A stretch of DNA of 64,000 nucleotides, taken from sequence record MW679410.1; one strand, 5' to 3'. Source of the stretch: Escherichia phage C6. The notes below the pieces were generated by a model that did not search any database, had not been told where the DNA came from, and saw only the letters and a list, made by a program, of their open reading frames with translations. The first letter of the stretch is position 1. Each line of letters opens with the position of its first letter. The position numbers were made by a program, and so were the translations under genes. This document shows positions 60,588-64,000 of the stretch, piece by piece.

Positions 60588-63500
60588 ATGGCTACTTTAA
60601 AATCGATACAATTTAAAAGAAGTAAAACACCAGGAGCCAAGCCTACTGCAGCTCAGTTAGATGAAGGCGAACTGGCTATTAACTTGCGTGACCGCACTAT
60701 TTTTACTAAGTCGGACCAGGGACAGATTATTGATTTAGGCTTTGCTAAAGGTGGACAAGTTGATGGCGATGTAACTATTAATGGAACTTTACGCATTAAC
60801 GGCCCATTAAATAATTTTGGAAACTTTTCTACAAGCGGGTCAATTACGGCAGGCACGAGTATTTCGGCTCAAACTTTTAGAGCATTACAAGGCTCGTTTT
60901 ATTCAAGAGCTTCAAACGATACAACATCGAATGCCCATTTATGGTTTGAAAATGCTGATGGCTCTGAACGTGGTGTTATATATGCACGTCCTCAAACTAC
61001 AAATGCTGGTGAATTACGCATTAGGATTAAACAGGGGACAGAAGGCACTGCTAATAGTGAATTCTATTTCCGCTCTATAAATGGTGGTGAATTTCAGGCA
61101 AACCGTATTTTAGCATCAGATTCATTAGTAACTAAACGAATTGCAGCCGATACAGTTATCCACGGTGGCAAAGCCTTTGGTGTATATGATACAGATTCAT
61201 TAGTTAATTATGTATACCCAGGCACAGGCGAAGAAAATGGTGTAAACTATCTTCGTAAAGTTCGAGCTAAGTCTGGCGGCACTATATGGCATGAAATCTG
61301 TACGGCCCAAACAGGTCAGGCTGATGAGGTTTCTTGGTGGACTGGTAGTACTCCAGTATCTAAACAATGCGGTATTCGTAATGACGGGCGAATGATTGTT
61401 CGTAATAGTCTTGCGCTTGGCACAATGACTACTGATTTTCCGTCAAGTGATTATGGTAATGGAGGTGCTCTAGGATTTGGCGCTTATTTAGCTTTAGGTG
61501 ATAACGGCACAGGTTTACGTTATCAAAAAACCGGTGTTTATGATTTAGTCGGTTCTGGTTTATCTGTGGCCTCTGTTACTCCGGATAGTTTCCGTAGTAC
61601 TCGTAAAGGTTTATTTGGACGTTCAGAAGACCAAGGTGCAACTTGGATTATGCCAGGTACGAATGCTGCCTTTTTATCAGTTCAAACCCAGGCTGATGTG
61701 AATAATGCAGGTGACGGTCAGACGCATATTGGCTATAACTCAGGCGGAAAAATGTCTCACTATTTCCGCGGTAAAGGTCAAACCAATATTAACACCCAAG
61801 AAGGCATGGAACTTAACCCAGGTATTCTTAAACTGGTAACCGGCGGTAATAATGTACAGCTTTATGCTGACGGCACTATTTCTTCTATTCAAAGAATTAA
61901 ATTTGATAACGGGGTACTTCTTACCGGGGCTAGAGCTGACGGTATTCAACTTGATGCGCCTACATCATTAGATGGCACTAAAACTATACTGTGGGGCGCT
62001 GGTACTCGCGCAGGTCAGAATAAAAACTATATATCTATTAAAGCATGGGGTAATTCATTTAATACAGGTGGCGGTAATAGAGAAACTGTTTGGGAAGTTT
62101 CAGATTCACAGGGCTATTATTTTTACGCGCAAAGAACCAACCCGGCATCAGGTGAAACCGTCGGCCCTGTTAACTTTAAATTTAACGGAACTGTCGAAAC
62201 AGGCCATATCATAGGCCTTGGTAATATAAGTGCCTCCGGTACAGGTTCTTTTGGTGGCAATGTTACTATGTCTAACGGTTTGTTTGTCCAAGGTGGTTCT
62301 TCTATTACTGGACAAGTAAAAATTGGTGGAACAGCAGATGCATTAAGAATTTGGAATGCCGAATACGGTGCTATTTTCCGTCGTTCAGAAAGTAACTTTT
62401 ATATTCTTCCAACCAATCAAAATGAAGGCGAAAGTGGAGACATTCACAGCTCTTTGAGACCTGTGAGAATAGGATTAAACGATGGCATGGTTGGGCTAGG
62501 AAGAGATTCTTTTATAGTAGATCAAAATAATGCTTTAACTACAATAAACAGCAATTCTCGCATTAATGCCAATTTCAGAATGCAATTAGGACAAAATGCT
62601 TATATAGATATTGAGGCTTCTGACGGTGTTCGTCCTGCAGGGTGTGGTTCATTTGCATCCCAGAATGACGCAAACGTAAGAGCTCCGATTTATATGAATA
62701 TAGAGCGTACTGCTCCTTCTGAATATATTCCTATTGTCAAACAACGTTACGTACAAGGTGATAGTACTTATTCTATTGGTACCTTAATTTCTCAAGGAGA
62801 CTTCCGCGTTCATTATCACCAGGGCAATAGTACTACCGGAACTGATTTGAGTTGGGAATTCCGCCGCACCGGTGACTTCCGCTTACCTGGTAAAATTATT
62901 GTAGGCAACACAACTTTAGGAACTGATGGTAATATCACTGGTGGCTCTGGTAACTTTGCTAACTTAAACAGTACAATTGAATCACTTAAAACTGATATTG
63001 TTTCAAGTTATCCTATTGGAGCCCCAATTCCATGGCCAACGGATACTCCTCCTAATGGTTATGCTTTGATGGAAGGTCAGACCTTTGATAAAGGTGCTTA
63101 TCCTAAGCTTGCTGTTGCATATCCTTCTGGTACTATTCCTGATATGCGTGGTCAAACTATCAAGGGTAAACCAAGTGGACGTGCTGTGTTAAGTGCAGAA
63201 GCTGATGGTATTAAGTCCCATAACCATGGTGCATCCGCATCTAATACAGATTTAGGTACTAAAACTACGTCAAGTTTTGATTATGGTACTAAAACCACTT
63301 CAAGTTTTGATTATGGTACTAAGACCAGTAATACCACTGGTAACCATAACCATACAGTAAGCGGTACTACTAGCGCAGCAGGTAACCACCAGCACTCACA
63401 GACCGGTCCAAGGGGTCCTAATAATCAACCAACAGGAGTATATCCTAATGGAGCTACTGCAATTAGTGGAACCAATGTTCTTTCTTTTGCCACAAGCGAC

Positions 63501-63767
63501 AAAATCGTGCCTGGTATAGGCCAATATATTGCAAAGTCGTCAACAGAAGGTAACCATACACACTCTTGGTCTGGAACTACAAGTACCACAGGTAACCATG
63601 CCCACACTGTGGGTATTGGTGCCCATAGCCATTCGGTCGGTATTGGTGCTCACACTCACACGGTAGCGATTGGTTCACATGGTCATACAATCACTGTAAA
63701 TAATACAGGTAATACAGAAAACACAGTTAAAAACATTGCTTTTAACTATATCGTTCGCTTAGCATAA
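60588..63767 (+). CDS. 37: Long tail fiber distal subunit gp37 (receptor-binding fibre)
   Basis: 1059 aa; C-terminal region with multiple His-x-His motifs ([52 protein letters not shown]) as in the T4 gp37 tip; followed by a T4-type gp38. Confidence 0.93.
63253..63330 (+). repeat. Tandem duplication of a 30-bp unit inside the gene 37 tip region
   Basis: CAAGTTTTGATTATGGTACTAA(A/G)ACC present twice in tandem (63271-63300, 63301-63330) with a partial copy upstream; encodes [24 protein letters not shown]. Confidence 0.7.
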
Positions 63768-63770
63768 GGA

Positions 63771-63788
63771 GAGGGGCTTAGGCCCCTT
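63771..63788 (+). promoter_or_regulatory. Stem-loop between genes 37 and 38
   Basis: GGGGC-TTAG-GCCCC hairpin directly after the gene 37 stop, no U-run. Confidence 0.4.
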
Positions 63789-63794
63789 CTGAAT

Positions 63795-64000
63795 ATGAAA
63801 ATTTATCATTTTTATTTTGACACAAAAGAATTTTACAAAGAAGAAAATTATAAACCAGTTAAAGGTCTTGGTCTCCCGGCTCACTCAACTACAAAGGAAC
63901 CATTGGAACCTAAAGAAGGTTTCGCAGTTGTATTTGATGAACGTAAGCAAGATTGGATTTATGAAGAAGACCATCGAGGCAAACGTGCATGGACTTTTAA
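63795..64000 (+). CDS. 38: gp38, T4-type tail-fiber assembly factor, 3'-truncated at window edge
   Basis: Manual translation from ATG 63795: MKIYHFYFDTKEFYKEENYKPVKGLGLPAHSTTKEPLEPKEGFAVVFDERKQDWIYEEDHRGKRAWTF, nearly identical to the T4 gp38 N-terminus as recalled. Confidence 0.88.
   Translation, partial: MKIYHFYFDTKEFYKEENYKPVKGLGLPAHSTTKEPLEPKEGFAVVFDERKQDWIYEEDHRGKRAWTF

What the first reader, a model, noticed from the sequence alone, without database searches (positions are those of the whole stretch)
63180..63767. gp37 receptor-binding tip with a His-x-His array and a recent in-frame tandem duplication
The last 190 codons of gene 37 contain at least eight His-x-His motifs (GNHNHT, GNHQHS, GNHTHS, GNHAHT, GAHSHS, GAHTHT, GSHGHT), the signature of the metal-coordinating needle of the T4 gp37 tip. 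Just upstream, a 30-bp unit is duplicated in tandem at 63271-63330, encoding ([10 protein letters not shown]) twice. The downstream gene is a T4-type gp38, so gp37 itself should carry receptor specificity. Repeat expansion in this segment is a plausible host-range variation mechanism.
Basis: partly seen in the sequence, partly recalled or inferred. Interest (0 to 1): 0.5.

Follow-up and report, generated by a model that had tools for sequence, protein, structure and literature searches.

The report
T4-type tail-fibre tip, one rung longer
This is the ordinary metal-binding, needle-shaped tip of a T4-like phage's long tail fibre; the "duplicated" 10-residue unit is not recent but is one half of an old, widely shared structural rung that makes the needle one step longer than in phage T4.

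Summary
Gene 37 (60588-63767, 1059 aa) ends in a T4-type receptor-binding tip (PDB 2XGF, E=1.5e-93). It has eight His-x-His motifs, and all 16 histidines of the last 190 residues sit in them (0 of 100,000 shuffles reach 8). There is a 30-bp tandem repeat, but its register is [10 protein letters not shown] x2 at 63255-63314, not 63271-63330.

The "recent duplication" reading fails. TuIa (a 1990 record), 14 other T-even tips and lambda-Stf-like prophage fibres carry the same three-unit array. Units 2-3 are 100% identical in DNA to Mosigvirus mar007P3. T4, with two units, is the odd one out.

By homology to T4 the array lies in the ascending stem, not in the receptor-contacting tip subdomain.

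In about 200 non-redundant tips, the number of ascending 10-aa units (1-5) equals the number of 9-aa steps in the descending GxHxH ladder, with one exception. So the two repeats form one structural rung. Here that gives eight predicted metal sites against seven in T4.

The same head types occur on stems of different length, so unit number does not track specificity. The finding is an ordinary, mosaic new member of a known family.

The parts
60588..63767 (+). Gene 37: long tail fibre distal subunit, 1059 aa.
   Evidence: ORF list. It is 72% identical to T4 gp37 over the full length. The gene order of the three upstream ORFs, gene 37 and gene 38 matches T4 34-35-36-37-38.
63018..63161 (+). Collar ('knob', D10) domain, aa 811-858.
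   Evidence: Pfam PF07484 Collar, E=9e-11, 42 bits against a cut-off of 24. It aligns with 2XGF.
63216..63395 (+). Ascending strand of the needle stem, aa 877-936. It carries three HxH motifs (nt 63219, 63345, 63387).
   Evidence: Alignment to T4 882-931. T4 domain limits come from PMC6957217.
63249..63338 (+). Three 10-aa His-free units: [31 protein letters not shown]4 has two.
   Evidence: TRF period 30, 63255-63327. Unit table. T4 lacks exactly 10 aa here.
63396..63536 (+). Head (tip subdomain), aa 937-983: 47 aa against 28 in T4. Hypervariable; the presumed receptor-binding surface.
   Evidence: Equivalent to T4 932-959. Window 63393-63582 is 96% identical in DNA to Mosigvirus 348Ecol098PP, while 45-nt blocks across the head are only 36-47% identical to DCP80. 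Head types differ between T-even phages.
63537..63713 (+). Descending strand of the needle stem, aa 984-1042. It carries five HxH motifs (nt 63555, 63597, 63624, 63651, 63678).
   Evidence: Alignment to T4 960-1009.
63582..63689 (+). Descending ladder of four 9-aa GxHxH units: [37 protein letters not shown]4 has three. This is the structural partner of the 10-aa units.
   Evidence: TRF period 27, 63601-63664. T4 lacks exactly 9 aa here. Family-wide covariation with the ascending units.
63714..63767 (+). Conserved C-terminal segment [17 protein letters not shown], which returns to the knob, plus the stop codon.
   Evidence: Near-invariant across homologues.
63770..63790 (+). G+C-rich hairpin (GGGGC-UUAG-GCCCC core) between the gene 37 stop and the gene 38 start.
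   Evidence: RNA fold of 63755-63810: MFE -16 kcal/mol, z=-1.5. The same position is annotated as a 'putative terminator' in phage G2469.
63795..64000 (+). 5' part of gene 38, the T4-type tail-fibre assembly chaperone. It runs off the end of the window.
   Evidence: 63 of 68 residues identical to T4 gp38. The T4 record describes gp38 as 'tail fiber assembly'.

Best explanation
The region is the C-terminal receptor-binding tip of a T4-type gp37. It runs collar, then a long six-stranded beta-needle in which each chain goes up, forms the small head, and comes back down, then a return to the collar.

Each HxH motif from the three chains is expected to make one octahedral metal (Fe2+) site on the needle axis, as in T4. 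This tip would have eight sites; T4 has seven.

The 30-bp repeat is not a recent expansion. Its 10-aa His-free units on the ascending strand lie at the same axial height as the 9-aa GxHxH units on the descending strand. One ascending unit plus one descending unit make one 'rung' of the stem. This phage, like most sampled T-even phages with a T4-type gp37 and like lambda-Stf-type prophage fibres, has three rungs where T4 has two. Its stem is therefore about 9-10 residues longer on each strand, with one more metal site; this is inferred to add roughly 3 nm.

Receptor specificity resides in the 47-aa head between the two strands. The head has been exchanged by recombination within the conserved stem segments. 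The gene here is a mosaic:
- the collar is Dhakavirus/Gaprivervirus-like;
- units 2-3 are identical to those of a Mosigvirus;
- the head is 96% identical in DNA to another Mosigvirus.

gp38 downstream is the folding chaperone.

Shown here: homology, the motif count, the covariation and the mosaicism. Inferred: metal binding, trimeric fold, axial register, added length and receptor role.
For: 1. Homology to the solved T4 tip: 2XGF E=1.5e-93. Collar PF07484. gp38 fragment 93% identical to T4 gp38.

2. Relative to T4, the window has exactly +10 aa in the ascending strand and +9 aa (one GxHxH) in the descending strand.

3. Covariation in 160 non-redundant tips. The spacing between the first and second ascending HxH predicts the number of 9-spaced descending HxH:
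- spacing 22 gives 2 (1 of 1);
- spacing 32 gives 3 (78 of 78);
- spacing 42 gives 4 (71 of 71);
- spacing 52 gives 5 (5 of 5);
- spacing 62 gives 6 (1 of 1).
The four odd parses and the regex 'exceptions' fit the rule on inspection. Of the 17 other T-even tips parsed, 15 have 3 units and a 4-step ladder, and T4 has 2 and 3.

4. Register. Stem limits 882-931 and 960-1009 (PMC6957217) give 50 and 50 residues in T4, and 60 and 59 here. Pairing residue 931-k with residue 960+k puts T4 G921 opposite F970 (both k=10) and H929 next to G964. Both contacts are reported from the crystal structure in PMC6957217. In that register the units (k=19-48) face the ladder. Predicted metal-site spacings are 6, 8, 6, 9, 9, 8 residues in T4 and 6, 8, 6, 9, 9, 9, 9 here.

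5. Age. The same array is in TuIa, Mosigvirus, Gaprivervirus, Dhakavirus, Tequatrovirus and prophage fibres. Units 2-3 are 100% identical in DNA to mar007P3.

6. Location outside the contact region. T4 host-range and receptor mutations map to 933-955. Eight of 84 head clusters occur on more than one stem length.

7. Mosaicism. There is 1 mismatch to DCP80 over 63000-63151, none to mar007P3 over 63273-63374, and 8 to 348Ecol098PP over 63393-63582.
Against: - The axial register and the extra metal site are inferred from sequence arithmetic and two published contacts, not from a structure of this protein. The AlphaFold2 monomer model was uninformative (pLDDT 53, pTM 0.19), and a trimer could not be modelled.
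- One sequence breaks the rule. IMG/VR metagenome contig L005 has 3 ascending units but a 3-step ladder. So mismatched forms either exist or arise by assembly collapse.
- The sequences are phylogenetically related, so the covariation counts overstate the number of independent events. At least 8 head clusters with mixed stem lengths argue for several events.
- A lateral ('transversal') docking mode that uses the needle as well as the head was proposed for T4-OmpC (cited in PMC5221442). A contribution of stem length or surface to binding is therefore not excluded.
- The primary papers (Bartual 2010; Tetart 1996 and 1998) were not readable here.
Confidence: 0.8

Rival explanations
1. A recent in-frame tandem duplication (slippage or unequal recombination) of a 30-bp unit arose in this phage's lineage. 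It acts as a host-range variation mechanism by changing the receptor-binding tip.
For: - The copies are 93% alike.
- Unit number does vary in the family, from 1 to 5.
- Some phages (VR25, 348Ecol098PP) have DNA-identical units 1 and 2.
- Within-genome unit 1 to unit 2 identity slightly exceeds between-genome identity (20.5 against 19.5 of 24, permutation p about 0.014). That is compatible with occasional homogenisation.
- A lateral docking model involving the needle exists.
Against: - The same array occurs in many genera and in a 1990 record.
- Units 2-3 are identical in DNA to mar007P3, whose unit 1 is different.
- Prophage versions have strongly diverged units.
- The array lies in the stem, 20-48 residues below the tip subdomain.
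- It always comes with a matching descending unit about 120 residues away, which a single tandem duplication cannot create.
- Head type and unit number assort independently.
Confidence: 0.07
2. The conserved repeats (the DxGTK units and the GxHxH 'His boxes') matter mainly at the DNA level. They would serve as short homology patches that let T-even phages and prophages swap the head cassette by recombination. On this view the unit number is a by-product of where crossovers fell.
For: - The gene is a fine-scale mosaic. One junction lies at the unit 1 | unit 2 boundary: mismatches to mar007P3 stop at 63272 and there are none over 63273-63374. Another junction lies in the descending ladder.
- The same head appears on different stems.
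- From my own memory of Tetart et al. 1998, which was not readable here: recombination between conserved motifs swaps adhesin specificity in T-even fibres.
Against: - This does not explain why ascending and descending unit numbers always match. That points to a structural constraint on the protein.
- Unequal crossovers in only one array should yield mismatches, and only one was seen (L005).
- The model complements the best explanation rather than excluding it.
Confidence: 0.1
3. Artefact: an assembly or sequencing error created the extra 30 bp.
For: Short tandem repeats can be mis-assembled. L005 may be such a case for the 27-bp repeat.
Against: - The frame is intact through 1059 codons.
- The two copies differ at 2 positions.
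- Fifteen independent T-even records have the same three-unit, four-step architecture.
Confidence: 0.01

Closest known systems
Phage T4 gp37 receptor-binding tip (residues 785-1026, PDB 2XGF; knob D10, stem and tip D11)
   Same: - Collar, HxH needle, small head and return strand.
- Conserved flanks, including [11 protein letters not shown]...H.H and [17 protein letters not shown].
- Downstream gp38 chaperone.
- 59% identity over the last 216 aa and E=1.5e-93.
   Different: - One more rung: 3 rather than 2 ascending 10-aa units, and 4 rather than 3 descending 9-aa GxHxH units.
- Eight HxH rather than seven.
- The head is 47 aa rather than 28 and is unrelated in sequence.
gp37 of phage TuIa (X55190), Mosigvirus 348Ecol098PP and mar007P3, and Gaprivervirus/Dhakavirus DCP80 and 04086
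   Same: - Identical architecture: 3 units, 4-step ladder, 8 HxH.
- 348Ecol098PP has the same head type, at 92.6% identity over the last 216 aa.
- DCP80 and 04086 share the collar at about 100% DNA identity.
- mar007P3 shares units 2-3 at 100%.
   Different: - No single record matches the whole tip; the best is 85-91% in DNA.
- The exact protein is not on record.
- The segment around unit 1 (63228-63272) is only 71-84% identical to any sampled relative.
Lambda-type side tail fibre (Stf) C-termini of lambdoid prophages; the 'T4- and lambda-based RBP family' of PMC9659904
   Same: - The same last ~215-aa module with DxGTK units, HxH ladder and conserved C-terminus.
- Both 2-unit and 3-unit forms exist.
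   Different: - A different N-terminal fibre body and phage type.
- Units are more diverged in DNA.
T2/T6/S16-type fibre tip, in which a separate gp38 adhesin caps gp37
   Same: The same locus (genes 37-38) and the same role in host recognition.
   Different: Here gp38 is the T4-type chaperone (93% identical to T4 gp38) and gp37 keeps its own HxH needle and head. The two gp38 types are unrelated, according to the T4 record's note.
Bas63 (Felixounavirus) long and short tail fibre tips
   Same: A T4-like collar, HxH needle and head. The authors note six or seven di-histidine motifs and suggest that the number scales with needle length (PMC12609058).
   Different: These are distant sequences. That paper does not describe the paired ascending and descending unit rule found here.

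Membership tests
T4-type gp37 receptor-binding tip (2XGF-like collar-needle-head) | Significant sequence similarity to the solved T4 tip across the collar and both needle strands. | tested here: met
   phmmer against PDB: 2xgf_A E=1.5e-93, matched in two main stretches that flank the variable head.
T4-type gp37 receptor-binding tip (2XGF-like collar-needle-head) | Phage tail collar domain immediately upstream of the needle. | tested here: met
   PF07484 at aa 811-858, 42 bits against a cut-off of 24.
T4-type gp37 receptor-binding tip (2XGF-like collar-needle-head) | HxH motifs on both the ascending and descending strands around a short variable head. | tested here: met
   Three ascending and five descending HxH. 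All 16 His are in HxH pairs. 0 of 100,000 shuffles reach 8.
T4-type gp37 receptor-binding tip (2XGF-like collar-needle-head) | Octahedral Fe2+ coordination by the six His of each HxH layer in a trimer. | not testable with these tools
   Inferred from T4 (PMC6957217; PMC12609058). No metal or trimer modelling was available.
T4-type gp37 receptor-binding tip (2XGF-like collar-needle-head) | Interwoven trimeric six-stranded needle fold. | tested here: inconclusive
   The AlphaFold2 monomer model had mean pLDDT 53.2 and pTM 0.19. No fold search was run on it.
T4-type gp37 receptor-binding tip (2XGF-like collar-needle-head) | T4-type gp38 assembly chaperone encoded directly downstream. | tested here: met
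   63 of 68 residues identical to T4 gp38. Only the first 68 codons lie in the window. Pfam found nothing for the fragment.
T2/T6/S16-type gp38 adhesin system | The downstream gp38 is an adhesin unrelated to T4 gp38. | tested here: not met
   The gp38 fragment is T4-type. The T4 record's note distinguishes the two types.
Recent, lineage-specific tandem duplication (contingency-type repeat) | The extra copy is absent from close relatives, or the copies are more alike than orthologues. | tested here: not met
   Three units are present in 15 of 17 other T-even tips. Units 2-3 are identical in DNA to mar007P3. Paralogue identity (20.5 of 24) is about the same as orthologue identity (20.0-20.3 of 24).
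Recent, lineage-specific tandem duplication (contingency-type repeat) | Copy-number variation within a population of otherwise identical genomes. | not tested
   No reads or near-identical genomes are available; the best backbone match is about 94%.

The most novel reading that the evidence does not exclude
The needle of T4/lambda-Stf-type fibre tips may be built from stackable two-part rungs. One kind pairs a 10-aa His-free ascending unit with a 9-aa GxHxH descending unit. A second kind uses a 14-aa unit on both strands.

The number of rungs varies from 1 to 5 for the first kind, giving roughly 5 to 10 metal sites. It is always matched on the two strands, although the two halves are encoded more than 300 nt apart.

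If rung number is selected, this would be a simple evolvable 'ruler' in receptor-binding proteins. It could set how far the head reaches through LPS, O-antigen or capsule, and it would be independent of the head that sets specificity. It would also be a design rule for engineering fibres. I did not find this pairing rule in the papers I could search.
Probability: 0.25. Interest if true: 0.5.

Novelty: new member of a known kind. Interest (0 to 1): 0.27.

Why it matters
As flagged, the finding is textbook. The HxH iron needle of T4 gp37 and the T4-type gp38 chaperone are well described, and the three-unit array has been in the databases since the TuIa sequence.

Two things are worth keeping.

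First, the ascending 10-aa repeat and the descending 9-aa His-box repeat are two halves of one structural module, and their numbers match across about 200 diverse tips. This explains why the repeat is there. It predicts the number of metal sites and the needle length from sequence alone. It also gives a practical rule for engineering chimeric fibres: add or remove both halves together, and place crossovers in the stem.

Second, this particular tip shows very fine mosaicism between T-even genera, with segments of about 100 nt. One junction lies inside the repeat array. This fits cassette exchange of the receptor-binding head.

Tried and rejected
- AlphaFold2 on the 250-aa tip with a 34-sequence alignment gave pLDDT 53 and pTM 0.19. 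The monomer is not informative for an interwoven trimer, so I ran no fold search.
- Pfam on the 68-aa gp38 fragment found nothing. I used direct comparison with T4 gp38 instead.
- The primary papers could not be read: Bartual 2010 by DOI and by PMC id, and Chen 2017. Domain limits and contacts come from PMC6957217, PMC5221442 and PMC9603124 instead.
- An IMG/VR scan with an upstream gp37 segment, meant to collect many T-even loci, returned only 3. I fetched 10 GenBank phage records individually instead.
- An exact look-up of gp37 in the assembly collection found nothing on record.
- A first regex count of DxGTK units suggested exceptions to the pairing rule. Inspection showed these were degenerate units (for example NHGTK, DYDTK, DLGAP) or an HxH arising by chance inside a unit. 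The HxH-spacing measure is the robust one.
- I considered dating the duplication from copy divergence and rejected it. Paralogous and orthologous unit identities are about equal, so the units are too short and too constrained to date.
- The first call for the gp38 frame used the wrong start (63796). The correct start is 63795.
Full report
**What is in the sequence**

The ORF at 60588-63767 (+) encodes a 1059-aa protein. It follows three ORFs whose sizes and order match T4 genes 34, 35 and 36. It is 72% identical to T4 gp37 overall.

Its last 299 residues hit the crystal structure of the T4 gp37 receptor-binding tip (2XGF) with E=1.5e-93. Pfam places a phage tail collar domain at aa 811-858.

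The last 190 residues contain eight HxH motifs: H878, 920, 934, 990, 1004, 1013, 1022 and 1031. All 16 histidines of the segment belong to these motifs. None of 100,000 residue shuffles reaches eight; the mean is 1.26.

The next ORF starts at 63795. Its 68 visible residues are 93% identical to T4 gp38, the assembly chaperone, not the unrelated T2-type adhesin (T4 record note).

**The repeat**

Tandem Repeats Finder reports a 30-bp repeat at 63255-63327 (2.4 copies, 93% matches).

The first repeat encodes three 10-aa units:
- [10 protein letters not shown], 63249-63278
- [10 protein letters not shown], 63279-63308
- [10 protein letters not shown], 63309-63338

The second repeat encodes the 9-aa units [18 protein letters not shown] and VAIGSHGHT.

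**Not recent**

T4 has two ascending units. TuIa (X55190, the Montag/Henning record), Mosigvirus 348Ecol098PP and Gaprivervirus DCP80 have three, like the window.

I parsed 17 other T-even tips from GenBank and IMG/VR:
- 15 have three units, a four-step descending ladder and eight HxH;
- T4 has two units and a three-step ladder;
- one metagenome contig is anomalous.

Lambda-Stf-like prophage fibres also carry three units, and their units are well diverged in DNA.

Window 63273-63374, which covers units 2 and 3 and the first GxHxH, has no mismatch to Mosigvirus mar007P3. That phage's unit 1 differs.

Within-genome unit 1 to unit 2 identity is 18-24 of 24 nt (22 in the window, mean 20.5). This is about the same as orthologous identity between genomes (20.0-20.3). 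It is only slightly above between-genome paralogue identity (19.5, permutation p about 0.014). The similarity of the copies therefore reflects constraint, and perhaps occasional homogenisation, not recency.

**What the repeat is**

Relative to T4 the window has +10 aa on the ascending strand and +9 aa (one GxHxH) on the descending strand.

I tested whether this pairing is general. I used 160 non-redundant tips from the two protein searches. The spacing between the first and second ascending HxH is 12 + 10 x units. Compared with the number of 9-spaced descending HxH it gave:

| Ascending HxH spacing (aa) | Descending ladder HxH | Tips fitting |
|---|---|---|
| 22 | 2 | 1 of 1 |
| 32 | 3 | 78 of 78 |
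| 42 | 4 | 71 of 71 |
| 52 | 5 | 5 of 5 |
| 62 | 6 | 1 of 1 |

The remaining four were parsing errors that fit the rule on inspection. So were the unparsed cases and the regex 'exceptions' in a 198-sequence set.

A second module behaves the same way. It is a 14-aa GxHxH-S-G-T-A-A-S-A type unit present on both strands. The counts of ascending against descending copies were (1,0) in 87 tips, (2,1) in 108 and (3,2) in 1.

The only true exception is L005, an IMG/VR metagenome contig with three units and a three-step ladder.

**Register**

PMC6957217 gives the T4 stem as 882-931 (up) and 960-1009 (down), with the tip subdomain at 932-959. That is 50 residues on each strand. In the window the equivalents are 877-936 and 984-1042, or 60 and 59 residues.

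Pairing residue 931-k with residue 960+k puts T4 G921 opposite F970 and H929 next to G964. Both contacts are described from the crystal structure in that paper.

In this register the ascending units (k=19-38 in T4, 19-48 here) face exactly the descending 9-aa ladder. The predicted order of metal sites has spacings of 6, 8, 6, 9, 9, 8 residues in T4 and 6, 8, 6, 9, 9, 9, 9 here.

I therefore read one ascending unit plus one descending unit as one rung of the needle. This tip has one rung, and one predicted metal site, more than T4. This is an inference. The AlphaFold2 monomer model was too poor to test it (pLDDT 53).

**Bearing on host range**

The array maps to T4 893-912, in the stem. The T4 mutations that change LPS or OmpC recognition lie at 933-955, in the tip subdomain.

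The head here (aa 937-983) is unrelated to T4's. It belongs to a type shared with Mosigviruses.

Eight of 84 head clusters (at least 60% identity) occur on stems of different rung number. For example, the P896 head type is found with three units in P896 and with two in P0231. Rung number therefore assorts independently of the specificity module.

A contribution of needle length or surface to adsorption is not excluded, because a lateral docking model exists. Nothing here supports it.

**Mosaicism**

The phage backbone is about 94% identical to QL01 and vB_EcoM_FB-like phages. The exact gp37 is not on record.

Within the tip:
- 63000-63151 differs from DCP80 at one position;
- 63273-63374 is identical to mar007P3;
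- 63393-63582 (the head) differs from 348Ecol098PP at 8 positions.

One junction thus falls at the unit 1 | unit 2 boundary and another in the descending ladder. This fits exchange of the head cassette by recombination in conserved stem DNA.

**Literature**

The HxH motifs, the seven Fe sites of T4 and the stem/tip map are established. The T4/lambda RBP family is described in PMC9659904. The Bas63 paper speculates that HxH number scales with needle length.

I did not find the ascending/descending pairing rule in five full-text searches. The primary structure paper and the Tetart papers were not available.

**Verdict**

The object is correctly named. The claims of a recent duplication and a host-range mechanism are not supported.

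The finding is an ordinary, mosaic new member of a well-known family. Its useful by-product is the paired-rung rule.

Noticed in passing
window 63601-63664 (units at 63609-63689): A second tandem repeat, period 27 bp, encodes [27 protein letters not shown]. It turned out to be the descending partner of the 30-bp repeat.
   Followed up: yes
window 63770-63790: A G+C-rich hairpin (GGGGC-UUAG-GCCCC, MFE -16 kcal/mol for 63755-63810, z=-1.5) sits between the gene 37 stop and the gene 38 AUG, right after a GGAG. The same spot is annotated as a putative terminator in phage G2469. From memory, T4 gene 38 has a hairpin that brings a distant Shine-Dalgarno sequence close to the start codon; I did not check this.
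   Followed up: partly
L005 (IMGVR_UViG_3300030021_000020), tip ORF: This is the only tip that breaks the pairing rule. It has three ascending units but a three-step descending ladder, like TuIa minus one VGIGAHTHT unit. It is either a natural mismatched intermediate or an assembly collapse of the 27-bp repeat.
   Followed up: partly
window 62868-63700: The tip is a fine-scale mosaic. The collar is about 100% DCP80/04086-like up to about 63151. 63273-63374 is identical to Mosigvirus mar007P3. The head is 96% identical to 348Ecol098PP. The stretch 63228-63272 (around unit 1) is only 71-84% identical to every sampled relative.
   Followed up: yes
homologues P0258, P0126, P0186 and others: A second needle module, a 14-aa GxHxH-containing unit, is also matched between the two strands. 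P0258 has three on each strand, and short tips have none on the descending strand. The rung number of the 10/9-aa kind ranges from 1 (P0258) to 5 (P0126).
   Followed up: partly
unit arrays of 348Ecol098PP (L002) and VR25 (L096): In some phages units 1 and 2 share unusual synonymous codons. In 348Ecol098PP both units use TCA TCA TTC for Ser-Ser-Phe, where other phages use TCA AGT/AGC TTT. In VR25 the two units have identical DNA after the Leu/Tyr codon. This hints at occasional gene conversion or re-duplication between units.
   Followed up: partly
window 62073-62468 (gp37 aa 496-627): There is a weak Pfam hit to Gp34_trimer (PF21446, 25 bits, just under the 27-bit cut-off). It fits the known similarity between T4 gp37 residues 486-513 and gp34 residues 971-998 mentioned in PMC3004832.
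   Followed up: no
The word-indexed protein search listed only proteins of 522 aa or fewer, with at most 80% identity. The exhaustive representative search found an 87%-identical tip (P0121). GenBank phage 348Ecol098PP is 92.6% identical over the last 216 aa. The first search therefore under-reported the close full-length gp37 relatives.
   Followed up: no
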